Shown here in pieces: positions 5,887 to 64,000 of a DNA stretch of 64,000 nucleotides. Position 1 is the stretch's first letter, and each line of letters opens with the position of its first letter. This stretch comes from an uncultured delta proteobacterium. GTDB lineage: Bacteria > Myxococcota_A > Polyangia > Haliangiales > Haliangiaceae. The translations under genes and the position numbers were made by a program. The notes below the pieces were generated by a model. It was not told the origin of the DNA. It searched no databases and saw nothing but the letters and a program-made list of their open reading frames with translations. The stretch covers positions 261,470-325,469 of the forward strand of contig CAVZFC010000035.1 of the NCBI GenBank assembly GCA_963774445.1, read 5' to 3'.

Positions 5887-6042
5887 CTACTTCGTCCGCT
5901 TGCGCAGGTTTGGCCGCAGATTTGCGTTCCAACCGGCGACGTCGGTGGGCTGGTACAGGGCGATGTGGAGCGTCTCGTTGGTCTCGGGGTTCATGAACAG
6001 CGTGATGCCCTTGTCCGGGTAGACGTAGGCGCCGTCCTTCAT
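5887..6042 (-). CDS. small hypothetical protein
   Basis: Internal ATG of ORF 5887..6234 (MKDGAYVYPDKGITLF...). The upstream part of that ORF overlaps the tRNA, so the start is truncated here. Weak call. Confidence 0.2.
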   Translation of the reverse strand: MKDGAYVYPDKGITLFMNPETNETLHIALYQPTDVAGWNANLRPNLRKRTK

Positions 6043-6189
6043 CAGCACCGAGCCGTACCACCAGTCGTCCCTGGCGGCGGCGGTGCCGTACTGCTGTTGG
6101 TTCTGTTCGGCAAGCGAGCCCCGGGCGTGCCGTAGGGCTCGGCCGGGCCGCCGAAAATCACAACGCCCGGCAAGCGGCCGGGCGTCGTG

Positions 6190-6264
<75 letters not shown>

Positions 6265-6344: not shown

Positions 6345-6764
6345 CTACTTGCGATAAACCTCGATGCCGGCGGTCTTCAGGGCGGCTTCGAGGTCCTGGG
6401 CGGCGCCGAAGTTGGCGTCGCCGGTGACGATCAGGTCGGCGGCGCGCGGCGGCTTGCACGCGGCGATGGCGTCGCCAATCTCACCCGGGTTTCCAGCGAT
6501 GGTCAGCCCCGTGGCGTCGAGGCGGAGCTGGCAGCGGGGCAGGGCGGCGTCCGCGGGAGTGTCGGCGAGCCTGGCGGGCTGGCCGGTCGGCTGGCGTTGG
6601 CGCGTCGGCTCGTTGCCGCTGCCGCCCAGGCCGAGGGAGCCGCGGCAGCGCAAGAACAAGATCGCGGCGACGACCAGGCCGAGCAGGATCAGCCAGAAGA
6701 CGAGTCGCTTGCGCCCGGCGGCCCGGGCCCTGGCGTCACGAGAGGTCGGGGGTGGTTTCGGCAT
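6345..6764 (-). CDS. TolR/ExbD-like protein (second copy)
   Basis: Single TM segment (LVFWLILLGLVVAAILFL). The C-terminus (LIVTGDANFGAAQDLEAALKTAGIEVY) is ExbD-like. Confidence 0.5.
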   Translation of the reverse strand: MPKPPPTSRDARARAAGRKRLVFWLILLGLVVAAILFLRCRGSLGLGGSGNEPTRQRQPTGQPARLADTPADAALPRCQLRLDATGLTIAGNPGEIGDAIAACKPPRAADLIVTGDANFGAAQDLEAALKTAGIEVYRK

Positions 6765-6770
6765 GGGGGA

Positions 6771-7394
6771 TCACGGGCTGAAGGTGTCGAGGTTGCCGGG
6801 GTCAACCAGCACGGCGAGGGCGCCCTGGTCGGCGGCGCAGCGCTCGAGGTCGCGGCGGATGCCTTCGACCAGGGCCACGGGCAGCTGATCGATCGACGCG
6901 TCGGGGACGATGACGACGATGTCGCGGGCGAGGTCGGCCCGGCCCAGGGCGGCGGCGACGATGGCGCAGATGCGCAGCGCGGCGTTGCGGTCGCCCAGGT
7001 AGGCGAGGGCGATGTCTGGATCGTCGACGCGCTCGAGCAGCGGGGCGCCGACGAGGATCGACTCGCCATCGGCCGGCTCGACGGCGGTCAGCACGCCGCG
7101 CGACGAGATGTGCGCCAGCTGCGTGGCGCGGGTGTCGACGCTGCGGGCGATGGCGGCCGCGGCGGCCTGGCGCACGCTGGTCGGCGCCGGCTCGACGACG
7201 GCGTCGGGTGGGGCGGCGTCGGGGACGCCGGCGTCGGGCGGCGCGGCAGCGACCGCGGCCGGCTGGGGCTGCGGCGCGCGCTGCGACGCCTCGACCTTGC
7301 TGGCCGCGTGGATCAGCGACGCGAAGACGAGGATGAACAGGACGTCGAGCAGCGACGTCAGCGAGGAGTACTGGGTGGGGCGGCGGCGCGGCAT
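6771..7394 (-). CDS. ExbD/TolR family biopolymer transport protein
   Basis: N-terminal SLTSLLDVLFILVFASL is typical of ExbD. A periplasmic domain follows. Confidence 0.7.
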   Translation of the reverse strand: MPRRRPTQYSSLTSLLDVLFILVFASLIHAASKVEASQRAPQPQPAAVAAAPPDAGVPDAAPPDAVVEPAPTSVRQAAAAAIARSVDTRATQLAHISSRGVLTAVEPADGESILVGAPLLERVDDPDIALAYLGDRNAALRICAIVAAALGRADLARDIVVIVPDASIDQLPVALVEGIRRDLERCAADQGALAVLVDPGNLDTFSP

Positions 7395-7398
7395 GGCA

Positions 7399-7965
7399 TC
7401 ACGCGTCCTCGCGCGACACGCGGCGCGCGTTCCACGCCTCGATGTTCTTCTCGGCGGTGTCGGCCCAGACCCCCATCTTCATGGTGAACTGGCCGCTCAG
7501 CCAGACGCTGTAGGCGAGGCCGGCGACGGTGGTCCAGACCGCCAGGCCCAGCGGCTCGAGCAGCTCGCTCACGCCGGCGTCGCCCAGCGACAGCGACAGC
7601 CCCAGGCCGACGACGGTGAACAGCAGGCCCAGCTGGCGCAGGAAGTCGACCCAGAAGGCGAGGGCGGGCTCGAGCCGGTGGGCGCGCATCATCCAGCCGC
7701 GCACCTGCTTGGCCGCCCACGCCGGATCGCGCGCGCTGATCACCGAGGTCGCTTCGTCGCGGATCGTCTGCAGCGCGAGGGAGGCGCCCGGCGCCGGCTT
7801 GGCCGGCTCGTCGCCTGCCCCGGCCAGCTCGGTGCCGAGGTAGTCGGTGAGCAGGCGCACGTAGGCCAGCTCCCTGCGCAGGCTGAAGAAGCCGACGGCG
7901 AAGACCACGCTGATGAGAACCAGCGCGGCCACGGTGAAGCCCCACCCGTTGAGGAACGCGGTCAT
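7399..7965 (-). CDS. MotA/TolQ/ExbB family proton-channel protein
   Basis: Uses the internal start MTAFLNGWGF (ATG at 7963-7965). Three TM segments. LGLLFTVVGLGLSL...TTVAGLAYSV is the MotA/TolQ signature. The ORF-track N-extension is antisense junk. Confidence 0.7.
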   Translation of the reverse strand: MTAFLNGWGFTVAALVLISVVFAVGFFSLRRELAYVRLLTDYLGTELAGAGDEPAKPAPGASLALQTIRDEATSVISARDPAWAAKQVRGWMMRAHRLEPALAFWVDFLRQLGLLFTVVGLGLSLSLGDAGVSELLEPLGLAVWTTVAGLAYSVWLSGQFTMKMGVWADTAEKNIEAWNARRVSREDA

Positions 7966-8040
7966 GGGCGAGGCGATGGTATCACGGGGCCAGGTCGCGC
8001 CCGGGAGCTGCAACCGGGCGCACCAAGCGGTGTCGGGGCA

Positions 8041-8814
8041 ATGATGGACAGGACCAGGCGGTTGCGCGCGGCGGTGGTCGCGCTGGGGGTGGCGGTGGCG
8101 GCTCCGGCGTGGGGGCAGCCCGCACAGAAGGCGGCCGCGCCGCCGGCGCCTGCCGAAGCCGACGTTGCTCGCGCGCTTTCCGGCGCGGTCGCGGCCTGGG
8201 ATCGATCGTGTGCCCATGCCGACGCGCTCGGGTTGTGCGTGACCAAGACGAAGACGACCAGCGCGAACTATTGCACCGGTGCCTACGTGCGGATCCGCAA
8301 CGGGCGCAAGCGGCACCCGGCGCGCAAGGCGGCCGCCTCGTTGACGCGGGCGCTGGCGCTCTACGACCGCGCCGACCCAACCGTGAAGTCCAAGCTCGGC
8401 GCGCGCGCCGCCGCGGCGGCGATGCGGCAGGGCGACGCTGCGGTCGAAGCGATGCTGGCGCAGCCGTTTCCCACCAGCATCGACTTTCCGGCGCAGAACG
8501 CGGCGCGCAAGAAGGCGTCGATGAAGATCTTCCAGGCCTGGCTGAAGCACATCCAGAGCCAGACCAAGGAGCTCCGCGACCGCTACACCGCGGCGGCAAC
8601 GCTGGGCGATCCGGCGGTCCGCGCGGTAGCCCAGGCCCGCACCCGGGCCGCGCTCGACACGTTGGGCGACGTCCTGGAGATGGGCTATGTGCCGCACAGC
8701 GTGCGCACCGGTGACTACGCCATGGACAAGCTGGCCGCCTACTGCGACGAGCTCGCGGCGCAGGCGGCGCCGCTGCGGCCTCCACCACCGCCGGCGCCTG
8801 CGCCCGCGCCGTAG
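8041..8814 (+). CDS. secreted protein homologous to the C-terminal domain of the GltD-like TPR protein (56359..59940)
   Basis: Signal peptide MMDRTRRLRAAVVALGVAVAAPAWG. Shared blocks with the large TPR protein: KKASMKIFQAWL~KEKSLKIFMDWI and SVRTGDYAMDKLAAYCDELAAQAAPL~NVRTGQFAEDKVDAYCDELTSQATPL. Confidence 0.6.
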   Translation: MMDRTRRLRAAVVALGVAVAAPAWGQPAQKAAAPPAPAEADVARALSGAVAAWDRSCAHADALGLCVTKTKTTSANYCTGAYVRIRNGRKRHPARKAAASLTRALALYDRADPTVKSKLGARAAAAAMRQGDAAVEAMLAQPFPTSIDFPAQNAARKKASMKIFQAWLKHIQSQTKELRDRYTAAATLGDPAVRAVAQARTRAALDTLGDVLEMGYVPHSVRTGDYAMDKLAAYCDELAAQAAPLRPPPPPAPAPAP

Positions 8815-8956
8815 CCCGGCCAGACGGCCTCATCGTCGACGAACGCGGCGTTTTTACTGGGGACAGGCGGTCCCCCCAGCCGGTAGACGCCGGGCCCGGG
8901 CTGGTGTTAGGTTGGGCGCTCGCCTACGTTTTCTTCGCGAAACAAGGAACCGAGCG

Positions 8957-9310
8957 ATGCGCCTGCGACTGATCCCTTCGCTTCTCTGTGCTGCCCTGCT
9001 GTCGGTCGCCGCCTGCGGCGGCGCGACCAACTATCACCTGCCGGTGGACAGCCCGATCAAGCCGTTCAAGGCGCCGAGCGACGACGAGCTCACCGGGCAA
9101 GCGTTCGATCCGCTGGCCGCGCCCAGCGACGATGACGACGACTTCGAGCCGGTGATGCCCCCGGACATGAAGGACAAGCCCAACGAGAAGAGCGGCGACG
9201 ACGCCGCCAAGCCGCCGGCCAGCAAGACGGCGCCCGCTCCGGCGGCCAAGCCGGCCGCCAAGCCGGCGCCCAAGGCCAAGGCCAAGCCCAAGGCCGGCAA
9301 GAAGGGCTAG
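8957..9310 (+). CDS. lipoprotein with acidic and Ala/Lys/Pro-rich tail
   Basis: Lipobox LLSVAAC. Low-complexity C-terminus AKPAAKPAPKAKAKPKAGKKG. Confidence 0.5.
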   Translation: MRLRLIPSLLCAALLSVAACGGATNYHLPVDSPIKPFKAPSDDELTGQAFDPLAAPSDDDDDFEPVMPPDMKDKPNEKSGDDAAKPPASKTAPAPAAKPAAKPAPKAKAKPKAGKKG

Positions 9311-9394: not shown

Positions 9395-11218
<1,824 letters not shown>

Positions 11219-11223
11219 ATCTA

Positions 11224-11961
11224 GTGACCATGCTGACGAGCATGAGGGACGTGACGACGCGCGCTGGCACCACGCTGGCGCTGGCGATGGTTCTGGGTTG
11301 CAGCGGTGGCAGCGGCAAGGGGCCGACCGGGCCGGGCAACAGCCACGCGGCCACGGGCGATCAGGGCAACCCGTGTGGCGGCCTCGCCGACAACCCGTGC
11401 GCGGGCGGTGACGCCGGAGCCGGCACGACCGAGGCGGCGCAGCCCGCCTCGCTGGTCACCTTCGAGCTGGTCAATACCGACCCCGACCAACCGCTCGAGC
11501 TGGCGATCGACAAGGGCTGGAGCCTGGTGATCTCCGGCTACTCGGGCACGCCGCCCAAGGCGACGCCGATCATCCTGTTCCCGCAGCACTGCACGGCGTC
11601 GTGCGATGCCGGCGACGAGGATCGCTGCCCGGTGTGCGAGGCGCCCAAGGACGCGGCCGCGGAAAAGCAGGGCGAGCAGCGGCTGGTGATCGAGCCGGGC
11701 AAGTCGTACAGCCAGCCGTGGGACGGCCAGGTCCACCTCTACGAGAAGGGCAAGGGGACGCAGAAGGGGCGCCGCACCTCGTGCCAGTGCTTCCGCATGG
11801 AGCCGGTGCCACCGGAGACCTACACGCTGCGCGCGTGCGGCCTGCGGGTGACCACCAGCGCCAAGAAGACCAGCAAGTTCCAGTGCGCGACCACCGAGGT
11901 TCAGCTGCCGCCGGCCGAGCCGACCACGATTCGCTTCGAGTTCCCCAAGCCGGGGAAGTAG
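11224..11961 (+). CDS. Cys-containing lipoprotein, hypothetical
   Basis: Lipobox LGCSGG. Several Cys pairs (CPVCEAP, CQCF). Confidence 0.5.
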
Positions 11962-11984
11962 GCGCCGTCCCAGGTGACCCGAAG

Positions 11985-12464
11985 GTGAGCAAGAAGCTGA
12001 CCCACTTCGACGACGCCGGCGCGGCGCACATGGTCGAGGTGGGGGCCAAGCCGGAGAGTGCACGCGAGGCGGTGGCCTCCGGGCGCGTCCTCTGTGCCGC
12101 CGAGACGGCCCGGCTCATCGCCGAGGGCCGGGTAGGCAAGGGGGACGTGCTGGGGGTGGCGCGGATCGCCGGAATCCAGGCAATCAAACGCACGGCCGAG
12201 CTGATCCCGCTGTGCCATCCGCTGCGCATCACGGGGGTCGAGCTGGAGCTGGAGCTGGCCGACGCTCCGCCCTCGGTGGTCATTCGCGCCACGGTGCGCG
12301 CCCACGACCGCACCGGGGTCGAGATGGAGGCCCTGACGGCGGTCTCGGTGGCGGCGCTGACCGTCTACGACATGTGCAAGGCGGCCGACCGGGGCATGCA
12401 GATCACCGATGTCCGCCTGGAGCGCAAGGCGGGGGGGAAGTCCGGCACCTGGACGCGAGACTGA
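11985..12464 (+). CDS. moaC: cyclic pyranopterin monophosphate synthase MoaC
   Basis: GTG start (VSKKLTHFD). Conserved [10 protein letters not shown]...IPLCHPL...[24 protein letters not shown]. Confidence 0.85.
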
Positions 12465-12507
12465 CGGCCCTTCGGCGGCGATTGGCGCATCCCCGGGCAG
12501 TTCGGGT

Positions 12508-13077
<570 letters not shown>

Positions 13078-13078
13078 C

Positions 13079-13639
13079 GTGACCCGCTGGCTCATCGCCC
13101 TGGCCGTGGCCGGCGCCCTGGCCGCCGCGCCCGCCGCGGCGCGCGCCGACGATCTGCCGTCGGGCCAGCTGGGCACCGTCGGCGGCGTCCGCCAGGGCAC
13201 CGGACAGCTGGGCGAGGTTTTCGGCCTGGGCGGCATGCTCGGCATGCGCGCCGGCTGGCAGCGCTCCAGCACCGAGCGCCACTGGTCGTTCGGCGTCGGC
13301 TGGGAGGTGCTGTGGGGTTTCTTTGCGGCCAACGACCCGGGTATCAGCAACGAGTCGCTGCGCCTGCTGGAGATGAACCTTGGCCTGCGCGTGCGCCGCC
13401 TGCTGGGTCAGGGGACGCCGCGGTTCTTGTTGCTGCAGAGCGGCGTGACCGTGCTGCGCTCCAACGTGCCGATCCCACCGGACTCGGAGCGCAACTACGT
13501 CGGCCCGTATGTCGGCCTGGGCATCGAGCAGTACCTGCTGGGCCGCTTCCTCTTGACCGTCGAGTGGCGCTACGGCGTCCTCGTCGGCGGCCCCGGTAGC
13601 CTGACCGGGCTGATCAGCTTCTCCGTCGGCAACCGCTGA
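13079..13639 (+). CDS. secreted small beta-barrel-like protein, hypothetical
   Basis: Signal peptide ...AAPAAARADD. Alternating hydrophobic pattern. C-terminal LISFSVGNR. Confidence 0.45.
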   Translation: MTRWLIALAVAGALAAAPAAARADDLPSGQLGTVGGVRQGTGQLGEVFGLGGMLGMRAGWQRSSTERHWSFGVGWEVLWGFFAANDPGISNESLRLLEMNLGLRVRRLLGQGTPRFLLLQSGVTVLRSNVPIPPDSERNYVGPYVGLGIEQYLLGRFLLTVEWRYGVLVGGPGSLTGLISFSVGNR

Positions 13640-48395: not shown

Positions 48396-48783
48396 CCGGC
48401 ACCACGCCGGCGTCGATCATCTTCAGCCGCCTGGCCGCCGCCTCGGAGACGTCGATGATCCGGCCCTTGCCGTACGGCCCGCGGTTGTTGATCCGCAGGG
48501 TCACCGAGCGGTGGTTCTTCAGGTTGGTGACCTTGACGATGGTGCCGAACGGCAGGGTCCGGTGCGCCGCGGTCATCGAGTGCTTGTCGAAGATCTCGCC
48601 CGACGCGGTCTGGTGGCCGTGGAACTTGCCGCCGTACCAGGTCGCCTTGCCCCGCTGAACGCTGCCAACGGCGTGATGACCCTTCGCGTGGGCGGTCTGC
48701 TTGCCGGCCGCGGCGGTGCCGCCGCAACCGGTGACCACCAAGCCCAGCGCCGTCAGGCCGATCGCGAGCGGCCGCGCCCTCAC
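48307..48783 (-). CDS. RlpA-like (DPBB) lipoprotein with His/Lys-rich tail
   Basis: GTG start. Lipobox LVVTGCGG. ATWYGGKFHGHQTASGE. C-terminal HHHRHHHKKRSSKKK. Confidence 0.65.
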   Translation of the reverse strand: MRARPLAIGLTALGLVVTGCGGTAAAGKQTAHAKGHHAVGSVQRGKATWYGGKFHGHQTASGEIFDKHSMTAAHRTLPFGTIVKVTNLKNHRSVTLRINNRGPYGKGRIIDVSEAAARRLKMIDAGVVPATVEVLKLGKGRRKHHHRHHHKKRSSKKK

Positions 48784-50450
48784 TTTTTGCACCCCGGTCC
48801 CAGCTCGGCCCCGGCCTTCTTCAGCGCCGCGTCGCGCAGCTCGTGCGCGGTCGGTCCGTCGCCCAGCTCCACGCGCAGCTTCTCGCCGTGGCCCGGGCCG
48901 GTGACGTCGCGCAGGTACGCGTCGTAGTCGAAGGTGTCGGAGTGCTCGGGGGTGTGGCACTTCGCGCAGCGCTCGGCCGGCGGCTTGGTCACCAGCGACA
49001 ACGGCTTCTCCTTGCCGTCTTCGTCCACGTGGATCGACCCGGGGCCGTGGCAGACCTCGCACTGCACGTTGCGCAGGTTTTCGTTGACCGACAGCGTCGA
49101 GCCGCCCGGCTCCTTCCACCCGGTGACGTGGCAGCCGATGCAGTCGTAGCTCCACTGCTTGCCGACGTCGACCAGCGTCTTCCACGCCTGGGCGTGCCGG
49201 GTCTTCTTCCAGAACTTCACCGCCTCGCCGTGGCAGAAGCCGCACTCTTCGATCCCCGAGTAGCCGGCGTGCCCCTTGTCCGGCGCCACCGGCTGGTCAT
49301 CCTTGGCCGCCGCCAGGTTGGCCTTGCCGACCTCTTCGTCGAGCTTGGTCTTGGCCGTCTGCACCTCGGCGTCGCACGGCAGGCCCTTGGTGATCTGGAC
49401 CTGCTGCATGACGAACCAGCTGCCCTTGTCGGGAACCTGCAGCGGGTTGGCGGCCAGCGCCGTCTTTTCCGCCCTGGCGTCGGCCAGCTCCTTCTTCTTG
49501 GTGGCGACGAAGTCGGGGTCGGCGGTGGGGTCGTTCGCCCATTTGGCCAGCTGCGCCTCGAGGGCGGGGATGCGCTCCTCCAGCGCGGCGATGTGGCTCT
49601 TGGCCCGGGCCTGCCCCAGCGCGTCGGCCAGCGGCCCGTCGCCGCGCACGGTGACGTCCATCCGGGTCACCACCTGGCCGCGGTTGCCCGGCTGCACCAG
49701 CCAGGTCGACCCGACCTTGCCCGGGTCGGGGATGATCTTGTTCGGCTCGGGCGCCTCGGCACCGACGACGATGATGTCGATGCCGTCGACCTGCCGGGCC
49801 AGGTCGCGCGCCTCGCGCATCGGCATGTAGGCCAGGCCGACGACGACCTGGGCGCCGCCGTCGCGGAGCTTTTTCACCGCGGCGGCGGCCGGGCCTTTGG
49901 CCTCACCCGCGGCGGGGACGAGCGAGGGCGAGACGGCGCCGAAGATGCCCACCTTGACCCCGCCGGCCGTCACGACCGTGGGCTCGGCCAGGGGCAGCCC
50001 GGCGCTGGCCGGCACGTTGGCCGCCTGGCGCGGCGGTCGCACCCCCTCGGGGCCCAGCGCCAGATCGGTCGAGCCCAGGCCGACGGCGTCCACGTGCAGC
50101 CGCCCGGTCATGGTGCGGTACAGGAGGTCGGCCTTGGCCCGGGTCTGGGTGGCCGCCTCGGCCGGCAGCGGGGGCTTGGCGTACAGGGTCGAGCCGCCGT
50201 CCACATAAATGACCGCGTCCTTGCCCGCGCGGGCGTTAGCGATCATCGCGACGGTCCGCGACAGGTCGCCCATCGGATCGCTGGTGCAGCCGCAAGGCTC
50301 AATATTTCCCAGCAGTTCGGTCGTCGCGAACAGGGTAAAGGTGGACCCGCCGCTGCCCTCCTTGGTGGCCTTGCCCGAGGACGAGGCCGAACAGGTGGCG
50401 GTCACCCCCACGAGCGCCAGATAGGCGAAACTCCTGGCCAGGCGAGGCAT
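48780..50450 (-). CDS. multihaem c-type cytochrome lipoprotein with large N-terminal non-cytochrome domain
   Basis: Internal start MPRLARSF. Lipobox GVTATC. Four CxxCH motifs (CGFCH, CIGCH, CEVCH, CAKCH) in the C-terminal third. Confidence 0.7.
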   Translation of the reverse strand: MPRLARSFAYLALVGVTATCSASSSGKATKEGSGGSTFTLFATTELLGNIEPCGCTSDPMGDLSRTVAMIANARAGKDAVIYVDGGSTLYAKPPLPAEAATQTRAKADLLYRTMTGRLHVDAVGLGSTDLALGPEGVRPPRQAANVPASAGLPLAEPTVVTAGGVKVGIFGAVSPSLVPAAGEAKGPAAAAVKKLRDGGAQVVVGLAYMPMREARDLARQVDGIDIIVVGAEAPEPNKIIPDPGKVGSTWLVQPGNRGQVVTRMDVTVRGDGPLADALGQARAKSHIAALEERIPALEAQLAKWANDPTADPDFVATKKKELADARAEKTALAANPLQVPDKGSWFVMQQVQITKGLPCDAEVQTAKTKLDEEVGKANLAAAKDDQPVAPDKGHAGYSGIEECGFCHGEAVKFWKKTRHAQAWKTLVDVGKQWSYDCIGCHVTGWKEPGGSTLSVNENLRNVQCEVCHGPGSIHVDEDGKEKPLSLVTKPPAERCAKCHTPEHSDTFDYDAYLRDVTGPGHGEKLRVELGDGPTAHELRDAALKKAGAELGPGCKK

Positions 50451-50534
50451 GCCCCGACGTATAGCACGCTTGACACCCCCATACCTCACGGGTAGATTGC
50501 GCCGCTCGTAACCGACCACAAACCGAGAGAAACC

Positions 50535-53713: not shown

Positions 53714-54181
53714 TTACTGGCACTGCTCGAGCGTCTCGTTGCCGGGCAGGTTGCAGCAATGGTTCTCGGGCACGCCGGCGATGCAGGCCTGCGGCGTGGG
53801 CACGCCGCCGTCCGGGATCTGCAGGTAGTCGCGGCAGACGCACATCTTGCGGCAGCAGAACGGCCCGACGACCACCGGGATGGTGCAGGTGAAGCCGGTC
53901 TGGCAGGGTGACTCGGGAACACGGTCGCAGTCGCTGTCGCTCTGGCAGGTGGCGGTGCAGAGGTCGGCGTACTCGCTGCCCATCGGCAGCTCGCGTCGGA
54001 GCGGCTGGTGCAGGCAGGTGCGCGACGGGCACTCGAGGGCTGGTGACGCGATCACGGCTTCGGTCGCCGTGCCGGCGTCGAGGCCGATGAAGCACTTGCG
54101 CCCGACTGGGTTGTCCGAGCAAGCGGTCGCGAGAAGGCCCGCGCACGCGGCGAGCACGACGAGAATCGCATTGGCGCGCAT
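53714..54181 (-). CDS. Cys-rich secreted lipoprotein
   Basis: Internal start MRANAILVVLAACAGLLATAC. 16 Cys in the mature region. Confidence 0.5.
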   Translation of the reverse strand: MRANAILVVLAACAGLLATACSDNPVGRKCFIGLDAGTATEAVIASPALECPSRTCLHQPLRRELPMGSEYADLCTATCQSDSDCDRVPESPCQTGFTCTIPVVVGPFCCRKMCVCRDYLQIPDGGVPTPQACIAGVPENHCCNLPGNETLEQCQ

Positions 54182-54534
54182 GGCGCGGGATCGCTGCATC
54201 GAAAGAGCTCCTGACATCCCGTTGATCCCTCGAAAAAGGCGCACCACGCGTGCGCCCACGCGTCGCCATCATAATCCGGCACCTATCGATGTCAAGCACG
54301 CGACTCCGCAAAATTCCTCCGCTTTTTTCCTAAACGGATCGGCTTTTCACTGGCCACTGATCACAACGCTGGGGCGATTGTCCATCCGACCTGCAACCAG
54401 CACCTGCCCAGGGTGTCGTAGCGAGGACCAGCCAGAGCCCGGCAGCTTGACAAGTGTGTGAGCCCACCGCGATGATGCGCACCGCGTATCGCCGAGCGCG
54501 TGCCCGAGGCTCGACGACTGGGAGGTCATCTAGA

Positions 54535-56142
<1,608 letters not shown>

Positions 56143-56358
56143 CCAGCCCTGAGCTCTTCACTGTCTACCGGCGCGTCGCCTCGCCCCAACCTGATGACGC
56201 CCAAGACAGGCACCAAAACCGCCGGCCACCGGCCGGCAAACCAGCACAACTCGTGTGAGAGCGACGTTTCCGCGGCCGCGTTCAGCCGGCTCACGGGCCG
56301 TCGCTCATTTCGTTTTCGGAGTCCCGCCAGGACAGAAGCGAGACAAGGGGAGAGAGCC

Positions 56359-59300
56359 ATGAAACATGTCCGTCTACTAGGAGCGGCGCTCGCTGGCGCG
56401 CTCGTGCTCACCTGGCTGGCGCCCGGTGACGCGCTGGCGCAGCACGCGCGCTACAACCGCGAGTCCAAGGTCAACATCAAGGTCAAGCAGAGCAGCAAGA
56501 CCAAGAAGCTGAAGGCGAAGAAGAAAAAGTCGTCGGAGCTCAAGCCCGAGCTGACCGCCGACGAGTTCATCGAGATCGCCGGTCAGGTGAGCCACATCCG
56601 CGCGGCGCAGATCGAGGCGCTCAACCAGCTCATCAGTGAGACCGAGGCCGACGACCCGGAGCTCCCCGACCTGCACTTCCGGCTGGCGGAGATGTACGCC
56701 CAGCAGAACCGGTACTGGAACCACCGGGGCATGGAAGAGTTCGTCCAGATGGACAAGCTGAAGAGGGCGCACAAGAGCACTGCCGCGCTCAAGCGCAAGC
56801 AGAAGTCCTACTTCGACGAGTCCAAGAAGTACCTGGTGCGGGCGATCAAGCAGTACAAGAACCTGTTCTGTAGCCCCAAGGACCTGGGCGCCGGGCTCAA
56901 CTGCCGGCCCAACCCCAATTTCCGCAACTACCCGCGCATGGACACGGCGCTGTTCTACTTCGCGTTCACTCTGCAGAGCGCCAAGCAGATGACGGACGCC
57001 CGCAAGGTCTACGCACGTCTGGTCAAGGACTACCCCAAGTCCAAGTACATCCCCAGCGCGTTCCTGTCGTTCGCCGAGTACTACTTCGAGGCCGGCGAGC
57101 TGGCCAACGCTGAGCGCTTCTACGACAAGGTTCTGCAGTTCCCCAAGGCGCCGGTCTACACCTACGCGCTGTACAAGAAAGGCTGGGTCTTCCTCAACCT
57201 CGACCGCAACCAGGAGGCCTATGAGGTCTTCACCAAGGTTGCGCGGCTGACCGACGGCAAGAAGTCGAAGAAGACCATCAACCTGGCGTCCAAGAAGGAC
57301 TGCGTTCGCGCCTACGCCGAGATGGGCCGGGCCGAGACCGCGCTCAAGGCGTTCGAGCGCGTCAACCGCAAGTTCGCGCCGACGATGTTGCAGATCCTGG
57401 GCGACATGTACATGGACGACGGCAAGGCCGAGAAGGCGATCTACGTCTTCCGCGAGCTGATCGGCCTGGAGGCCAAGAAGTCGAAGAAGAGCCCGCAGAT
57501 CTGCGAGTGGCAGTACAACGTCGTCCACGCGATGATGTCGATCGGCAGCTACGGCGACAAGGCCGACGAGATCGAGAACCTGGTCAAGCTGTACAAGTAC
57601 CTCAAGGACCACAAAGCCATCCCGGAGTCGAACCTCCAGGAGTGCTACGAGAACGCCATCGCCGTGAACAGCGAGATGGCCAAGATCTGGCACAACGAGG
57701 CGATGAAGACCTTGAACACCGAGACGCTCGCCTACGTCGAGCGGATGTATCACCTGTTCCTCACCAGCTTCCCGGAGTCCGAGGAGTACGGCGAGATGCA
57801 GAAGTACTACGCCGAGCTCCTGTGGCAGCGGGCGCTGAACGAGAAGAACCCGCGCAAGGCGACCGAGATGTGGGAGAAGGCGGCCAACGCCTTCACTGAC
57901 GTGGTCAAGGCCGGCAAGGTCAACAAGAAGCTGCTCAAGGATTCGGCCTACGCCGCCGTGCTGGCGTGGAAGAACGCCCTCGACGTCGATCCGCGGCCGC
58001 AGGGCGTGAGCGCGCCGGACGATCTCGACCAGAAGGAAGAGGAGATCCCCAAGCCCAAGGAGATCCCGGAGCGCGAACAGAAGATGATCGACGCCTTCGA
58101 CATCTACATCACCTACGTCAAGGACCCGACCGACGACGAGCTGGTGCAGATGAAGTTCCTCAAGGCCCGCCTGTACTGGCGCTACAACCAGTTCGACAAG
58201 GCCATCCCGATGTTCGAGGACATCATCAAGCACAACATCAAGCACGAGACGGGCGAGTACTCGATCAACCTCTTGCTCGACACCTTCAGACGCACCCACA
58301 ACTACGACAAGTTGGTCTGGTGGGTGAACTACCTCCTCGAGCACGAGGAGAAGAACCTGAAGGACAAGCAAGAGCTGTGGGGCACGCTGACCAAGCTCAA
58401 GCGCCAGTCGATGCGTAAGCAGGCCGAGCAGCTCGAGAAGGACAAGAAGTACATCGAGTGCGGCAAGGCGTACCTGGCGATCTTCAACGAGGATCCCAAC
58501 AGCGACGACGGTCACGAGCTGCTGTACAACTCGGGCGTCTGCTTCCAGGACGGCATGTCGATGGGCGCTGCCCGTCAGGTGTTCAACATCCTGGCGCAGC
58601 GCTATCCCAAGGAGAAGGTCACGCAGCGCGCGATCGCGCGCCTCGGCTACATCTACGGCCGCGTCGCCTGGTACGGACGCGCCGCCGCGAAGCTCGAGGA
58701 GTACGCCCGCAGGTTCGGCGGCGAGAAGGACGCCTACAAGGCGCTCAACGACGCCGTCTTCTACTACAAGGGCATTGGCGAGGACGACAAGGCGATCAAG
58801 AGCACCGAGTTCTTCGTCAAGCAGTACAAGAAGAAGAAGCCGGTCGAGGCCGCCAACGCGTTCTACAGCCTGGTGACCATCTACGAGAAGCAGGGCGACA
58901 AGGACAAGATCGTCCGCCACCTGCGCGAGTACCTCAAGGAGCACCGCCGCAAGGGCGGGATCGACCGCGAGATCATCGCCCACGTCAAGATCGGGCGGAT
59001 CCTGTGGGACAAGTCGTGCCCGCTGTCCAAGACGGTCAATGGCTCGTGCATCAAGGTCACCCGCCAGCGCGCCATCGCGTCGCGGCGCAAGAAGCGCCGG
59101 CATCACGGTGGCTCGAGTCTGCCGACTCAGTGCGGCCCCGACTCGAAGCTGAAAACGGTGGTCAAGGAGCGCGACAAGCGCCTCGTGCGCGACGCGTACA
59201 AGGAGCTCAACACGGCGGTCAAGCTGTTCCACGGCGGCAAGGCGATCGACAAGGTCCCCGGAGACGCGGCCGAGAAGCAGGCCCGCCAGGAGCAGATGAT

Positions 59301-59940
59301 CGCGGCCTATGCCCAGGCCAAGTTCCTCCTGGCCGAACAGAACTACGAGGAGTTTCTGGGCATGAACTTCCCCAAGAACCTCAACTTCGATCCCAACAAG
59401 AAGAAGGTGAAGGAGAAGTCGCTCAAGATCTTCATGGACTGGATCGCCGACAAGGGGCACAGAATGCTCCAGCTCACCGCCAAGGGCGATGAGACCGATC
59501 CCAAGACCAAGAAGCCTGCCAAGTTGGGCGCCTACCGCGAGGTCATCAACATCAAGGGTGGCGGTGCCGACTACGCCATCGCCGCGGCCGCGCGTATCGG
59601 CCAGGCCGCGCAGAACTTCTCCGACACCCTGTTCACGGCGTCGATCCCTCAGAACGTCCGTACGGGACAGTTCGCCGAGGACAAGGTCGATGCCTACTGC
59701 GACGAGCTGACCTCGCAAGCCACGCCGCTCGAGGACATCTCGATCGGCGCCTTCGGGTTCTGCTTGAAGGTCTCCACCGATCAGAACTGGTTCAACTCGT
59801 GGTCGAAGCTGTGTGAGCGCGAGCTCGGTCAGATTCGCCCCGAGGAGTTCCCCACCGCCGCCGAGCTGCACGAGGATGCCGCCGGTATGGCCCCGGTTAC
59901 CGACATCGAGCCTCCGCAGCTCGAGCTGGTCGGTGAGTGA
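56359..59940 (+). CDS. large secreted TPR-repeat protein (GltD/AgmU/NfsD-like)
   Basis: 1193 aa. Signal peptide MKHVRLLGAALAGALVLTWLA. TPR throughout. The C-terminal 250-aa domain is shared with 8041..8814. Confidence 0.6.
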   Translation: MKHVRLLGAALAGALVLTWLAPGDALAQHARYNRESKVNIKVKQSSKTKKLKAKKKKSSELKPELTADEFIEIAGQVSHIRAAQIEALNQLISETEADDPELPDLHFRLAEMYAQQNRYWNHRGMEEFVQMDKLKRAHKSTAALKRKQKSYFDESKKYLVRAIKQYKNLFCSPKDLGAGLNCRPNPNFRNYPRMDTALFYFAFTLQSAKQMTDARKVYARLVKDYPKSKYIPSAFLSFAEYYFEAGELANAERFYDKVLQFPKAPVYTYALYKKGWVFLNLDRNQEAYEVFTKVARLTDGKKSKKTINLASKKDCVRAYAEMGRAETALKAFERVNRKFAPTMLQILGDMYMDDGKAEKAIYVFRELIGLEAKKSKKSPQICEWQYNVVHAMMSIGSYGDKADEIENLVKLYKYLKDHKAIPESNLQECYENAIAVNSEMAKIWHNEAMKTLNTETLAYVERMYHLFLTSFPESEEYGEMQKYYAELLWQRALNEKNPRKATEMWEKAANAFTDVVKAGKVNKKLLKDSAYAAVLAWKNALDVDPRPQGVSAPDDLDQKEEEIPKPKEIPEREQKMIDAFDIYITYVKDPTDDELVQMKFLKARLYWRYNQFDKAIPMFEDIIKHNIKHETGEYSINLLLDTFRRTHNYDKLVWWVNYLLEHEEKNLKDKQELWGTLTKLKRQSMRKQAEQLEKDKKYIECGKAYLAIFNEDPNSDDGHELLYNSGVCFQDGMSMGAARQVFNILAQRYPKEKVTQRAIARLGYIYGRVAWYGRAAAKLEEYARRFGGEKDAYKALNDAVFYYKGIGEDDKAIKSTEFFVKQYKKKKPVEAANAFYSLVTIYEKQGDKDKIVRHLREYLKEHRRKGGIDREIIAHVKIGRILWDKSCPLSKTVNGSCIKVTRQRAIASRRKKRRHHGGSSLPTQCGPDSKLKTVVKERDKRLVRDAYKELNTAVKLFHGGKAIDKVPGDAAEKQARQEQMIAAYAQAKFLLAEQNYEEFLGMNFPKNLNFDPNKKKVKEKSLKIFMDWIADKGHRMLQLTAKGDETDPKTKKPAKLGAYREVINIKGGGADYAIAAAARIGQAAQNFSDTLFTASIPQNVRTGQFAEDKVDAYCDELTSQATPLEDISIGAFGFCLKVSTDQNWFNSWSKLCERELGQIRPEEFPTAAELHEDAAGMAPVTDIEPPQLELVGE

Positions 59941-59957
59941 AAGGACGGAGGTGAGCT

Positions 59958-61274
59958 ATGCGTAACCTCAGCATCATCGTCATGACCCTCGGACTCGCAG
60001 CGGTCGTCGCTGCGTGCGGCGGCCCCGCCAAGGGGGCCAACGCCCCGCACGGTAAGGGGGGCACCGTCGGCAAGGTCAACACCTCGGGCAAGCACGCCAA
60101 GCAGGCCCCCGATCGCAGGGTCTCGAAGGACGCCAAGAAGGACTTCGCCGAGGCCGTTGCCATCCACAACAAGGCGGCCGCCGACGGCTGGACCAACGAC
60201 GAGTGCAACGACGTCGCCTCGAAGTGGGACGACGTGGCCAGCGAGCACCCCAAGCTGGTCGAGGCCCGGTACAACGCCGGCCTCGCCTATCACTCGTGTG
60301 GGATGCTCGACAAGGCCGAGGCCGAGTACAAGCAGGCGCTCAGCATCGTCGGCAGCCACGCGCCCAGCATCTCCAACATCGGCGAGATTCGCTTCAGCCG
60401 GGGCGATGTCAACGGCGCCAAGGCTCAGTGGGAGCTGGCGCTGAAGGCCGACTCCAAGCTGGTCGCGGCGCGCAACAACCTGGCCTGGCTGCTCCTCGAT
60501 CAGCTGCGCACCACTACCGACCACTCGGCGTGGACGCGGATCGAAAAGGAGGCACGCGATCAGCTGTCCAGCGTGCTGGCGGTCGATCAGTCCAACTACA
60601 AGGCGTACGTCCTGTACGGGCTGGTCTACCTCGAGGGCTCCGATCGCAACAAGAACCGGCTCGATCTGTCGAAGCTGCTGCTCGACGAGGCCAAGAAGCA
60701 CAACGAGAACTACCCGCCGCTGCAGAACGCCTACGGGCTGCTCTACCTGCGACGCAACTCGCCGGGCCGCGCGCTGGAGAAGTTCTCCAAAGCGGTCGAG
60801 CTCGATCCGGACTTCCTCGAAGCGCGGATGAACGTCGGCAACATCACCCTGAACTTCCGCAAGTACGACGTCGCCGAGCAGCAGTTCTCGTACGTGCTGA
60901 AGAAGCAGCCGAAGAACTACGACGCCCTCATCGGCCAGGGGATCGCCGAGCGCGGCCTGGGCAAGATCGACGACGCGGAGAAGAGCTACCTGGCGGCGCA
61001 AAAGGCCGACAGCCGCCGGCCGGAGGCCTACTACAACCTGGGCGTCCTCTATAAGGACTTCCGGGCCAACAAGGCCAGCGACCTGCAGGGCTCGATTGCC
61101 ATGTACGAGAAGGCCAAGGGCTACTTCGGTCAGTTCCTGACCAAGCCGGGGATCAACGGCGACGACAAGGAAGAGGCCAAGGACAACATCCAGGACTGCG
61201 ACAAGACCGTGAAGCAGATTCGGGATGCCATCGCGGCCATGAAGGCGGCCGACGAGCCCGCTCCCAAGAAGTAG
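59958..61274 (+). CDS. TPR-repeat lipoprotein (GltE/AglT/NfsE-like)
   Basis: Lipobox LAAVVAACGG. TPR repeats. 438 aa. Confidence 0.55.
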   Translation: MRNLSIIVMTLGLAAVVAACGGPAKGANAPHGKGGTVGKVNTSGKHAKQAPDRRVSKDAKKDFAEAVAIHNKAAADGWTNDECNDVASKWDDVASEHPKLVEARYNAGLAYHSCGMLDKAEAEYKQALSIVGSHAPSISNIGEIRFSRGDVNGAKAQWELALKADSKLVAARNNLAWLLLDQLRTTTDHSAWTRIEKEARDQLSSVLAVDQSNYKAYVLYGLVYLEGSDRNKNRLDLSKLLLDEAKKHNENYPPLQNAYGLLYLRRNSPGRALEKFSKAVELDPDFLEARMNVGNITLNFRKYDVAEQQFSYVLKKQPKNYDALIGQGIAERGLGKIDDAEKSYLAAQKADSRRPEAYYNLGVLYKDFRANKASDLQGSIAMYEKAKGYFGQFLTKPGINGDDKEEAKDNIQDCDKTVKQIRDAIAAMKAADEPAPKK

Positions 61275-61289
61275 CGTTCGACCGAGGGG

Positions 61290-61327
61290 CCATGGGGGCC
61301 TGCCGCCCCCATGGTCTTTCTTTTTAA
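61290..61327 (+). terminator. rho-independent terminator
   Basis: ccatgggggc-ctgcc-gcccccatgg. 10-bp GC stem followed by tctttcttttt. Confidence 0.6.
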
Positions 61328-61754: not shown

Positions 61755-61856
61755 TCCTCCCCGGGGACCTAGTCCTCGACCGAGATCGATTCGGGCCCAC
61801 CGGCTGCTGTTCGCGCACTGTCTTCCCAGACGAGAGATCGAGACGGAGCAACGAAC

Positions 61857-64000
61857 ATGGCCGGTGGAAAGATCCCCCTCACGTTCCAAATTTTCAAGGG
61901 CGACCAGCTCGTCCGCGAGGAGACGCTGACCCAACCGGTCATCAAGGTTGGCAAGCTCTCCTCGTCTCACCTGCGCCTCGATGACGACAGCGTCAGCCGC
62001 ATGCATGCGGTGATCGAGGTCTCGGGTGCTGACGACATCAGCATCATCGACCTGGGCTCGACGAAGGGCACCTTCGTCAACGGGCAGAAGGTCAACAAGG
62101 CCAAGCTCCAGTCCGGCGACGAAATCACCCTGGGTGACACGCGCATCGTCGTGAACGTCGGCGGCGCTGCCGACGACGCCGGCGATGACGAGCCGACCCG
62201 GGTGCAGGTGCAGGCCGCACCACCGGCGCAGGCCGACGTCATCGCATCGTCTCCGCCGCCGCCGATGGGCGCGCCGCCGATGGCCGCCTCTGCGCCGCCA
62301 CCGGTTGCCGCGCCGCCGCCCGTTGCCGCGCCGCCGCCTGTCGCCCCGCCGATGGCCGCGGCCGCGCCGCCGGTCGCGCCGCGGGGCATGGCGCCGCCGC
62401 CGGGCATGCCGGGTATGGTGCCGCCGCCGGGCATGGTGCCGCCGCCGGGCATGCCGGGCATGGCGCCGCCGCCGGGCATGGCGCCGGCACAATTCGGCTT
62501 CGATCCCATCGACGACATGACCGGCGCTCGCGCCATCGAGGTCGCGGCCATGCTGGGCGACTCGGTCGTCGGCGTGAAGCACGTGATGAACCCGCGCAGC
62601 GGCAAGGTGCAGCCGGTCACCTACCTGTTGTTCGGTCTGTGCAGCGCGCTGCTGCTCCTGGCGTTCATCGCCTTCGGCAAGGGGGTCTCGCTGGCCAAGG
62701 CCAACAAGGCCGCGCTGCACCACCACGTCGAAGTCCTCAAGCTGCCGTACCACGAGTTCCGTCCGATGCGGCAGAGCCCGATCTGGGACTTCCTCGCCTT
62801 CGGCGGCCTGATCGGCGGCATCACCTGCGGCACCTGGGGCCTGGTCCGGATGCGCAACGAGAAGGTGTCGCCGTTCTTCAAGATCGGCAGCGCCCCGGAC
62901 GTCAACTTCGCGACCGACGGCGCCGTGCCGACCGCGTCGTTCGCGCTGGTCGCGCCGTCGGGTGACGACTTCGTCTTCAACTTCGCGCAGGGCATGGAAG
63001 GCGAGATGATGCTCGGCTCCGAGTCCACGCCGCTCTCCGAGCTGGCGGGGCAGGGCCGCGCACGCCAGTCCACGTCTGCACTCGGTGCCCTCGAGGTGCC
63101 GATTCCCGACAAGGCGCGCATCCGCGTCAAGGCCGGCCACAACACCTTCATGGTGTCATCGGTCGCGCGGCCGCGCTCCAATCCGGCGCCGCTGTTTGCC
63201 GGGCTGTCGATGGCCGTCTTTGCCTTCTTTCTGGGCTCGGCCATCGTCCACTTCGGCTTCGTCGCGCTGCTCAACGCCATCCCGCCCGATCCCAAGTCGC
63301 TCGCCCTCGATCTGGGCAGCGGTGAGGGGCGCCGCACCCACGTCGAGTCCAAGGCCGAGGAAGAGAAGGTCGAGGACGAGGAAGACACGGTGGACAAGGA
63401 CTCCGACGAGGACGAGGGCGGCACCGGAACCGCCGAGGCCTTCGAAGAGGGCAAGATGGGCAAGGAGGACTCCGACCGCGAGAAGGGTCGCTACGCCATC
63501 GAGAACAAGGGCGTCCCGCCGCAGCTCGCGCGCAAGCAGGCCGTCAATCAGGCCCGTACCGAGGGCATCCTGGGCAGCGGCCTGCAGGAGCAGCTGACCA
63601 CCCTGACCGGCTCGGCCGACTTCAGCTCTGGTCTCGACGACCGCACCGTCTACGGCGGTCGCCTGGGCGACGAGGTCGGTGAGATGGCTGGCGGCTTCGG
63701 CACCGGCGCCTCGGGCTTCGGTCCCGGCGGTGGCGGCACCGGATTCGGCACCATCGGCTCCGGCCGGTACGGCACCATCGGCCACGGCTCGGGTACTGGC
63801 TCGGGCTACGGCTCGGGCTCCGGCCGCGGTGGCATGAAGGGCCGCCGGTCGGTGACCCCACAGGTGCGCATCGGCAACGCGACCGCGACCGGCGATCTCG
63901 ACAAGAACATCATCCGCCGGTACATCCGCCGCAAGCTGCCACGCATCAAATACTGCTACGAGAAGCAGCTCCTGGTGAACCAGGGCCTGCAGGGGACCGT
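61857..64000 (+). CDS. FHA-domain / Pro-rich / TM / TonB-C-like protein (GltG/PglI-like), partial, continues beyond window
   Basis: FHA domain (VIKVGKLSSSHLRLDDDSVSRMHAVIE...GSTKGTFVNGQKV). (PPG/PPVA)n linker. TM helices. C-terminal ...DLDKNIIRRYIRRKLPRIKYCYEKQ. Confidence 0.65.
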   Translation, partial: MAGGKIPLTFQIFKGDQLVREETLTQPVIKVGKLSSSHLRLDDDSVSRMHAVIEVSGADDISIIDLGSTKGTFVNGQKVNKAKLQSGDEITLGDTRIVVNVGGAADDAGDDEPTRVQVQAAPPAQADVIASSPPPPMGAPPMAASAPPPVAAPPPVAAPPPVAPPMAAAAPPVAPRGMAPPPGMPGMVPPPGMVPPPGMPGMAPPPGMAPAQFGFDPIDDMTGARAIEVAAMLGDSVVGVKHVMNPRSGKVQPVTYLLFGLCSALLLLAFIAFGKGVSLAKANKAALHHHVEVLKLPYHEFRPMRQSPIWDFLAFGGLIGGITCGTWGLVRMRNEKVSPFFKIGSAPDVNFATDGAVPTASFALVAPSGDDFVFNFAQGMEGEMMLGSESTPLSELAGQGRARQSTSALGALEVPIPDKARIRVKAGHNTFMVSSVARPRSNPAPLFAGLSMAVFAFFLGSAIVHFGFVALLNAIPPDPKSLALDLGSGEGRRTHVESKAEEEKVEDEEDTVDKDSDEDEGGTGTAEAFEEGKMGKEDSDREKGRYAIENKGVPPQLARKQAVNQARTEGILGSGLQEQLTTLTGSADFSSGLDDRTVYGGRLGDEVGEMAGGFGTGASGFGPGGGGTGFGTIGSGRYGTIGHGSGTGSGYGSGSGRGGMKGRRSVTPQVRIGNATATGDLDKNIIRRYIRRKLPRIKYCYEKQLLVNQGLQGT

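What the first reader, a model, noticed from the sequence alone, without database searches (positions are those of the whole stretch)
8041..8814. Secreted protein that is a stand-alone copy of the C-terminal domain of the 1193-aa GltD-like TPR protein
The protein at 8041..8814 aligns block by block with the last ~250 aa of the 56359..59940 TPR protein. The shared blocks are KKASMKIFQAWL vs KEKSLKIFMDWI and SVRTGDYAMDKLAAYCDELAAQAAPL vs NVRTGQFAEDKVDAYCDELTSQATPL. It is encoded divergently right next to the TolQ/TolR-like motor genes. This links the motor locus to the Glt-like envelope cluster 48 kb away by a shared, otherwise unannotated domain.
Basis: seen in the sequence. Interest (0 to 1): 0.6.

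Follow-up and report, generated by a model that had tools for sequence, protein, structure and literature searches.

The report
Stand-alone copy of GltD tail domain
A small exported protein really is a free-standing relative of the tail domain of the large gliding-machinery-like TPR protein 48 kb away, but its position next to a TolQ-like motor is found only in one narrow lineage and does not link the two loci.

Summary
The 257-aa protein (8041-8814) and the 1193-aa TPR protein (56359-59940) are homologous over small aa 53-245 and big aa 883-1124. BLASTP gives E 2e-10. Smith-Waterman scores 147 against 38±4.8 for shuffles. All four Cys align. The match is not Ala-rich low complexity, because the big protein's domain is Lys-rich.

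The shared unit has no Pfam, NCBIfam or PDB sequence match. It defines about 207 clusters (50% identity) in the representative library. Most of the top 150 are stand-alone, some are fused to TPR arrays, and three are fused to the AgmX/PglI TonB-C-like tail. The AlphaFold model (pLDDT 92) is a TPR/SusD-like helical repeat with a β-hairpin. The gene is under purifying selection (dN/dS 0.20-0.34).

The motor adjacency occurs only in a tight clade (TolQ-like protein ≥92% identical). Four distant genomes with the same motor trio lack the domain nearby. Four distant stand-alone homologues lack motor neighbours.

Most likely it is a periplasmic docking module. The claimed motor-to-Glt link is not supported. 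Interest is modest.

The parts
8041..8814 (+). Gene for the 257-aa exported stand-alone domain protein. Signal peptide about aa 1-25. Folded domain about aa 39-245 (nt 8155-8775). Pro-rich tail aa 246-257.
   Evidence: ORF. GC3 is 0.895 and dN/dS is 0.20-0.34 against three orthologues. AF2 pLDDT 92.2, pTM 0.81. No Pfam or NCBIfam hit.
58963..59835 (+). Homologous domain inside the 1193-aa GltD-like TPR protein (gene 56359-59940), aa 869-1159. It includes the extra C-terminal Cys-pair helices (C1135, C1152) that the small protein lacks.
   Evidence: Family HMM A2: E 1.5e-52, 175.7 bits. BLASTP E 2e-10. Smith-Waterman z = 22.7. Cys positions.
56359..59940 (+). 1193-aa signal-peptide TPR protein in the GltD position of a gltC-D-E-G-like cluster.
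   Evidence: Pfam TPR_16/TPR_6/TPR_12 and others. Flanked by GltC-like, GltE-like and GltG-like genes.
54535..56142 (+). GltC-like TPR protein (start codon uncertain).
   Evidence: NCBIfam NF033756 GltC: E 3.5e-93, 313 bits, below the 450-bit cutoff.
59958..61274 (+). GltE-like TPR lipoprotein.
   Evidence: NCBIfam NF033758 GltE: E 1.1e-27, 97 bits, below the 225-bit cutoff.
61773..63998 (+). GltG-like FHA protein. It reaches the start of an AgmX/PglI tail and runs off the window.
   Evidence: NCBIfam NF033760 GltG: E 1.2e-86, 292 bits, below the 650-bit cutoff. NF033768 at aa 709-742.
7399..7965 (-). 188-aa TolQ/ExbB-like membrane protein. It is transcribed divergently from the small gene, with a 75-bp intergenic gap.
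6771..7394 (-). 207-aa single-pass membrane protein, second gene of the motor trio. It has an invariant LTSLxDVLFI transmembrane motif with an Asp.
   Evidence: Alignment A4. No Pfam or NCBIfam hit. hhalign against an ExbD is not significant.
6345..6764 (-). 139-aa single-pass membrane protein, third gene of the trio.
   Evidence: Alignment A5. No family hit. hhalign against an ExbD gives only a motif-level hint, E 0.016, probability 2.8%.
8960..9310 (+). 116-aa putative lipoprotein (lipobox ...SVAAC). It is Asp-rich and then Lys/Ala/Pro-rich, and is syntenic with the small gene in the close relatives.
   Evidence: ORF. Conserved downstream in L001, L013, L015 and L021. No family hit.
8834..8850 (+). 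Terminator-like hairpin with a TTTTT tail, 20 nt after the stop codon of the small gene.
   Evidence: 3 sites found against 1.1 expected in shuffles, so this is weak evidence.

Best explanation
Gene 8041-8814 encodes a real, Sec-exported, roughly 230-aa periplasmic protein consisting of a single domain. The domain is a helical repeat (TPR/SusD-like) with an inserted β-hairpin and four conserved Cys, which probably form two disulfides. It belongs to an uncurated Myxococcota family. The same domain forms the C-terminal, non-canonical helical domain of GltD-like TPR proteins, including the one at 56359-59940.

Shown: the homology, the fold class, export-type N-termini across the family, purifying selection, and the range of architectures.

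Inferred: it acts as a protein-protein docking module in the periplasm. In the published AlphaFold model of the Myxococcus xanthus machinery, the GltD C-terminal domain binds the TPR lipoprotein GltE and contacts the extended periplasmic segment of GltG. Three family members fuse the domain directly to the AgmX/PglI (TonB-C-like) tail. By analogy, the most likely partner is a TPR lipoprotein or an extended, TonB/GltG-type periplasmic segment.

This subfamily lacks the last Cys-pair helix and ends in a Pro-rich tail, so it is a trimmed version of the module.

The position next to the TolQ-like three-gene operon is a lineage-specific gene-order feature. It is not evidence of coupling.
For: - Homology.
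- Real gene: GC3 0.895 and dN/dS 0.20-0.34. Homologues at 35-40% identity have the same length.
- Family-invariant positions: W53, C57, C66, C78, P144, P218. C235 is nearly invariant.
- Size and architectures: 207 representative clusters at E ≤ 1e-3. Among the top 150, 85 are stand-alone, 37 have an N-terminal extension, 9 a C-terminal extension and 19 both. The extensions tested are TPR.
- Fusions to NF033768 AgmX/PglI tails score above the 40-bit cutoff in P0033, P0038 and P0088.
- GltD C-terminal domain binds GltE and touches GltG in the AlphaFold model of PMC11761067.
- Adjacency is not conserved.
Against: - No interaction was tested. The partner is inferred from a predicted model of a different organism's GltD.
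- I could not show that M. xanthus GltD's C-terminal domain belongs to this HMM family.
- The missing last helix pair could change or remove the binding surface.
- Divergent transcription from a 75-bp intergenic region shared with the TolQ-like operon is conserved in all five related loci. That could still reflect co-regulation in this lineage.
- Only a few distant contexts could be sampled, and one of them (L018) had just 1.5 kb of upstream sequence.
Confidence: 0.55

Rival explanations
1. One reading: the small protein is the periplasmic partner or output element of the adjacent TolQ-like three-gene motor. Through the shared domain, it ties that motor functionally to the Glt-like envelope cluster.
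For: - The genes are divergent with a 75-bp gap, and the arrangement is conserved in L001, L013, L014, L015 and L022.
- The neighbour is TolQ/ExbB-like by fold.
- Domain fusions to TonB-C-like tails show the family can work with motor-driven transducers.
- In the ancestral 'core complex', gltC/D/E/G are linked to aglRQS (PMC3169522).
Against: - All loci with the adjacency come from one tight clade (TolQ-like 92-94% identical, GlmS about 94% identical).
- The trio is conserved in L016, L018, L019 and L020 without any family member nearby, at HMM E ≤ 10.
- The distant stand-alone homologues P0005, P0006, P0155 and P0024 have no motor neighbours.
- The trio matches no NCBIfam TolQ/ExbB model and shows no ExbD domain. 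Orthology to aglRQS is therefore undemonstrated.
Confidence: 0.17
2. It is a modulator or competitor of the Glt-like complex. As a free GltD-tail mimic, it binds the GltE-like lipoprotein or the GltG-like segment in place of the GltD-like C-terminal domain, tuning assembly.
For: - The same genome carries both forms.
- GltD's C-terminal domain is the predicted GltE-binding site.
Against: - The two copies are only about 30% identical, and the small one lacks the last helix pair.
- By HMM score it is closer to several other family members (838-aa TPR fusion, 281-aa stand-alone form) than to GltD-length proteins.
- No regulatory or positional link to the glt-like cluster exists; it lies 48 kb away.
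Confidence: 0.13
3. It has an envelope or peptidoglycan-related role unconnected to motors. For example, it could be a scaffold for a periplasmic enzyme.
For: - A Peptidase_M14 gene lies directly next to two unrelated family members, P0005 and P0104.
- Contexts across the family are otherwise heterogeneous.
Against: - This is only two cases.
- No M14 gene lies next to the window's small gene.
- The idea was not followed up.
Confidence: 0.1
4. It is a chance, low-complexity similarity or a decaying gene fragment.
For: The small protein is 25% Ala. Word-based searches were swamped by low-complexity candidates.
Against: - Smith-Waterman z = 22.7 against shuffles. The partner domain is Lys-rich, not Ala-rich.
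- HMM E 1.5e-52.
- dN/dS 0.20-0.34, its own signal peptide, and conserved length across 35-84% identical homologues.
Confidence: 0.02

Closest known systems
C-terminal non-TPR helical domain of GltD (AgmU) of the Myxococcus xanthus Agl-Glt gliding machinery, and its paralogues NfsD/MXAN_1922/MXAN_1327
   Same: The window's GltD-position protein carries the same domain at its C-terminus (HMM E 1.5e-52). It is about 1200 aa, has a signal peptide and a central TPR region, and lies between GltC-, GltE- and GltG-like genes. GltD is described as a central TPR domain flanked by non-TPR helical domains, with GltE binding the C-terminal one (PMC11761067).
   Different: The small protein has no TPR array and no N-terminal domain. 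It lacks the final Cys-pair helix and is not in a glt cluster.
TPR / SusD-like helical-repeat proteins (e.g. 7kv4 SusD-family SGBP-A, 4i17 BF2334, BamD, YbgF/CpoB)
   Different: No Pfam TPR model hits the domain. Foldseek finds no PDB match at E ≤ 0.001. The domain has an inserted β-hairpin and conserved Cys that canonical TPRs lack.
AgmX/PglI C-terminal (TonB-C-like) domain proteins (GltG, GltJ)
   Same: Three family members fuse the domain to this tail (NF033768 at 45-74 bits, cutoff 40). This is a Rosetta-stone hint that the two modules work together.
   Different: The window's small protein has no such tail. It ends in 12 Pro/Ala residues.
TolQ-TolR / ExbB-ExbD / AglR-AglQ-AglS proton-driven motors (for the neighbouring trio)
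   Different: The window protein is below the Pfam cutoff and hits no NCBIfam TolQ/ExbB model. The two small proteins have no ExbD/TolR domain match. Orthology to aglRQS was not shown.

Membership tests
GltD-tail domain family (uncurated; defined here by HMM of alignment A2) | Significant match to the family profile over the whole domain | tested here: met
   The window's small protein scores 246.6 bits and the big protein 175.7 bits (E 1.5e-52). A profile of the small protein's orthologues finds 207 clusters.
GltD-tail domain family (uncurated; defined here by HMM of alignment A2) | Invariant W-x2-S-C ... C ... C near the start, P-x2-L-x-F loop, I-P-x-D-V-R-x-G and A-Y-C-D motifs | tested here: met
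   W53, C57, C66, C78, P144 and P218 are invariant, and S56, F149 and C235 are ≥90% conserved across 33 sequences. The Cys positions align with those of the big protein.
GltD-tail domain family (uncurated; defined here by HMM of alignment A2) | Terminal helix pair with two further Cys (big protein C1135 and C1152) | tested here: not met
   This element is absent from the window protein, its close orthologues, P0005 and P0006. They end in a short Pro-rich or other tail after '...QAxPLR'.
GltD / AgmU protein (whole protein) | About 1200-aa protein with a central TPR array | tested here: not met
   The small protein is 257 aa with no Pfam TPR hit. The 56359-59940 protein does meet this feature.
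GltD / AgmU protein (whole protein) | Encoded with gltC, gltE and gltG (core complex; PMC3169522) | tested here: not met
   The small gene lies between a TolQ-like operon and glmS. The big gene is flanked by GltC-, GltE- and GltG-like genes, all below the NCBIfam equivalog cutoffs.
GltD / AgmU protein (whole protein) | Orthology of the window's big protein, and of the shared domain, to M. xanthus GltD | not testable with these tools
   No M. xanthus GltD sequence was retrieved. No NCBIfam model named GltD matched. The assignment rests on synteny and architecture.
Canonical TPR repeat proteins (Pfam clan) | Match to a TPR sequence model | tested here: not met
MotA/TolQ/ExbB proton-channel family (gene 7399-7965) | PF01618 match at or above the gathering score | tested here: inconclusive
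   The window protein scores 16.6 bits against a 22.9-bit cutoff. Many homologues at 55-63% identity carry a precomputed PF01618 hit.
MotA/TolQ/ExbB proton-channel family (gene 7399-7965) | TolQ/ExbB fold | tested here: met
TolR/ExbD family (genes 6771-7394 and 6345-6764) | PF02472 ExbD domain | tested here: not met
   No hit even at E ≤ 10, for the window proteins or their orthologues. hhalign against an ExbD gives E 0.2 and 0.016, probability below 3%.
TolR/ExbD family (genes 6771-7394 and 6345-6764) | Single N-terminal transmembrane helix with a conserved Asp | tested here: met
   The 207-aa protein has an invariant LTSLxDVLFI motif across 41-86% identical orthologues. The 139-aa protein has a transmembrane helix but no Asp. 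The comparison with TolR/ExbD motifs comes from my own knowledge.
AglRQS gliding motor | Orthology to aglR/aglQ/aglS and linkage or co-occurrence with glt genes | not tested
   Only the gene count and order resemble aglRQS. In four distant genomes the trio stands alone, with no glt-like or family genes in the flanks.

The most novel reading that the evidence does not exclude
The stand-alone GltD-tail protein is the periplasmic working end of the divergently transcribed, uncharacterised TolQ-like three-gene motor (188/207/139 aa). That motor is widespread in Myxococcota and has no curated family for its two small subunits. Together they would form a minimal 'motor plus shaft-domain' module, independent of the Glt cluster. 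This would show how GltD-type shafts were first coupled to TolQ-type motors.
Probability: 0.1. Interest if true: 0.6.

Novelty: new variant of a known kind. Interest (0 to 1): 0.3.

Why it matters
GltD is the predicted central 'shaft' of the myxobacterial gliding machinery, and what its C-terminal domain does is unclear. This work shows three things about that domain:
- It is an autonomous, exported, Cys-stabilised module.
- It has hundreds of stand-alone and TPR-fused relatives.
- It is occasionally fused to the TonB-C-like tail of GltG/GltJ-type transducers.

That gives a defined, testable unit (an HMM and a confident model) for asking what the domain binds. It also flags a domain family missing from Pfam and NCBIfam.

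The work removes a tempting but unsupported inference, that gene adjacency here links a TolQ-like motor to the Glt-like cluster.

Tried and rejected
- Word-indexed homologue searches with the small protein and with the 33-sequence alignment returned only 4-5 proteins. Ala-rich words filled the candidate list. The exhaustive profile search was needed.
- The genome-contig scan failed with A2 because no conserved stretch was found. With A3 it found only the MAG already known.
- The metagenome scan added two half-genes from the same tight clade.
- The afdb50 fold library was unavailable.
- PDB sequence searches found nothing for the domain or for the TolQ-like protein. Foldseek against PDB had no hit at E ≤ 0.001.
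- Cluster look-ups gave almost no names: 'Myxococcota bacterium', 'hypothetical protein'.
- hhalign of the 207-aa and 139-aa families against an ExbD was not significant.
- I considered and rejected horizontal transfer as the cause of the low-GC glt-like region. GC3 stays at 0.91-0.93, so the dip comes from Lys-rich proteins.
- I considered and rejected a pseudogene or fragment reading (dN/dS).

Full report
**Observation.** The ORF at 8041-8814 (+) encodes 257 aa. It starts MMDRTRRLRAAVVALGVAVAAPAWGQP and ends in a Pro/Ala tail. The ORF at 56359-59940 (+) encodes a 1193-aa protein with a signal-peptide-like start and TPR repeats.
- BLASTP with composition-based statistics gives 48.1 bits, E 2e-10, for small 116-245 against big 977-1124.
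- A Smith-Waterman alignment extends this to small 53-245 against big 883-1124, with 62 identities in 191 aligned pairs and a score of 147.
- Five hundred shuffles of the mature small protein score 38.1±4.8 (maximum 66), so z = 22.7.
- The four Cys of the small protein (57, 66, 78, 235) align with Cys 887, 897, 925 and 1114 of the big one.
- The small protein is 25% Ala, but the matching region of the big protein is Lys-rich (11.3% Lys, 10.7% Ala). The similarity is therefore not shared low complexity.

The big protein continues for about 70 aa beyond the match. Those residues include a helix pair with two more Cys (1135, 1152).

**It is a real gene.** Codon-position GC is 0.71/0.59/0.90, as in other genes of this roughly 70% GC window. 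Against three orthologues (71-84% identical), dN/dS is 0.20-0.34. Homologues at 35-40% identity keep the same length and motifs.

**What the domain is.** Neither Pfam nor NCBIfam matches the small protein, and no PDB sequence is related. A profile of the four close orthologues was searched exhaustively against 1.84 billion representatives. It finds 207 clusters at E ≤ 1e-3 and 55 at ≤ 1e-10.

Among the best 150 hits:
- 85 are stand-alone proteins of about 200-300 aa;
- 37 have an N-terminal extension, 9 a C-terminal extension and 19 both;
- 12 are 1100-1190 aa with the domain at the C-terminus, the GltD-like layout.

The extensions I tested are TPR arrays of the BamD/YbgF type. Three members (P0033, P0038, P0088) fuse the domain to the AgmX/PglI C-terminal (TonB-C-like) domain. 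They score 45-74 bits on NF033768 against a cutoff of 40.

An alignment of 33 stand-alone members shows invariant W53, C57, C66, C78, P144 and P218, and near-invariant S56, F149, F164 and C235. All have hydrophobic N-termini. Most members, like the big protein, carry a further C-terminal helix pair with two Cys. The window protein, its orthologues, P0005 and P0006 lack it.

An HMM of this alignment hits the window's big protein at E 1.5e-52 over aa 869-1159. It finds no third copy in the window.

**Context of the big protein.** Its neighbours hit the NCBIfam equivalogs for GltC (313 bits), GltE (97 bits) and GltG (292 bits). All are below the curated cutoffs. The order gltC-D-E-G matches the 'core complex' genes of Luciano et al. 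(PMC3169522). Cambillau and Mignot (PMC11761067) describe M. xanthus GltD as a central TPR domain flanked by non-TPR helical domains. In their AlphaFold model, GltE binds the C-terminal domain and GltG wraps along GltD. I could not test directly whether M. xanthus GltD's tail belongs to the family defined here.

**Context of the small gene.** The small gene is transcribed divergently, across 75 bp, from a tight three-gene operon on the minus strand: 7965-7399 (188 aa), 7394-6771 (207 aa) and 6764-6345 (139 aa). A tRNA-Gly follows the operon.
- **The 207-aa protein.** It has an invariant transmembrane motif, LTSLxDVLFI, with an Asp, reminiscent of TolR/ExbD (the motif comparison is from my own knowledge).
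- **Both small proteins.** Neither gives any ExbD match. 'TolR-like' remains unproven.

**Is the adjacency meaningful?** The arrangement trio(-) | small(+) | small lipoprotein(+) | glmS recurs in L001/L002, L013, L014, L015 and L021/L022. In all of these the TolQ-like protein is 92-94% identical, and GlmS, where present, about 94% identical. They form a single tight clade, in which conserved gene order is expected anyway.

In four more distant genomes (L016, L018, L019, L020) the TolQ-like protein is 56-66% identical and the trio is conserved. Their flanks hold different genes and no family member, even at HMM E ≤ 10.

Conversely, distant stand-alone family members lie in other contexts, with no motor genes:
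- P0005 lies next to a Peptidase_M14 gene.
- P0006 lies among FHA, TPR and STAS genes.
- P0155 and P0024 lie after a Ser/Thr kinase and a conserved 298-aa gene.

A long-form member (P0104, 1164 aa) is also not in an obvious glt cluster. The claimed link between the motor locus and the Glt-like cluster is therefore not supported by conservation. It cannot be excluded for this one lineage.

**Mechanism.**
- *Shown:* an exported, selected, confidently folded helical-repeat domain with conserved Cys, homologous to the GltD-like tail.
- *Inferred:* it is a periplasmic docking module. The best guide to its partners is the predicted GltD-tail/GltE/GltG contact (PMC11761067) and the natural fusions to TonB-C-like tails. 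I therefore favour binding to a TPR lipoprotein or to an extended TonB/GltG-type segment (confidence about 0.55 for the overall picture).
- *Rivals:* partner of the adjacent TolQ-like motor (about 0.17); competitor or modulator of the Glt-like complex (about 0.13); an unrelated envelope role hinted at by two Peptidase_M14 adjacencies (about 0.10); artefact or fragment (about 0.02, effectively refuted).

**Novelty and verdict.** The GltD C-terminal domain is known from models of GltD. What is new is that it forms a sizeable, uncurated family dominated by stand-alone exported proteins. That family includes a tail-less subfamily, to which this gene belongs, and fusions to the AgmX/PglI tail. This is a new variant of a known kind and of modest interest (0.3). 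The functional link it proposed is not supported.

Noticed in passing
L003 6864-7949 (+) next to 8001-8753; L007 8365-9945 (-) next to 10001-13495: A Peptidase_M14 (zinc carboxypeptidase) gene lies immediately beside two unrelated members of the domain family. One is stand-alone (P0005) and one is a 1164-aa TPR form (P0104). This may hint at a cell-wall or peptide-processing link.
   Followed up: no
window 6345-7965 (-); L018 1493-3071; L019 6001-7581; L020 6001-7711: The TolQ-like 188-aa gene and two single-pass membrane proteins (about 200 and 140 aa) form a conserved operon across distant Myxococcota, with changing neighbours. The two small proteins have no Pfam or NCBIfam family. The first carries an invariant transmembrane Asp motif, LTSLxDVLFI. 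This looks like an uncharacterised TolQR/ExbBD-type motor variant.
   Followed up: partly
L009 3110-4006 and 4218-5021; L011 4691-5587 and 5646-6494: Another stand-alone subfamily (P0155, P0024) keeps a conserved context: a divergent Ser/Thr kinase, then a 298-aa protein with no Pfam hit, then the domain protein.
   Followed up: no
window 54000-62000: The glt-like cluster has GC 0.62-0.63 against about 0.70 elsewhere, but GC3 stays at 0.91-0.93. The dip reflects Lys/Glu/Asn-rich proteins rather than foreign codon usage.
   Followed up: partly
window 6190-6264 (-): A tRNA-Gly(GCC) lies directly downstream of the trio. The overlapping 115-aa ORF at 5887-6234 is therefore spurious.
   Followed up: yes
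L016 6606-6992 and 7012-7293: In this 3-Mb contig the homologue of the 207-aa trio protein is split into two ORFs of 128 and 93 aa, by a frameshift or assembly error. An ExbD-domain protein and a CBS protein lie upstream of the TolQ-like gene there.
   Followed up: no
window 8834-8850 (+) and 8960-9310 (+): A terminator-like hairpin follows the stop of the small gene. After it comes a conserved 116-aa acidic, then Lys/Ala/Pro-rich, putative lipoprotein with no family hit.
   Followed up: partly
window 48780-50519 (-): A UshA-like protein (NF041198, 259 bits, just below the 275-bit cutoff) carries multihaem cytochrome c-like matches in its C-terminal part.
   Followed up: no
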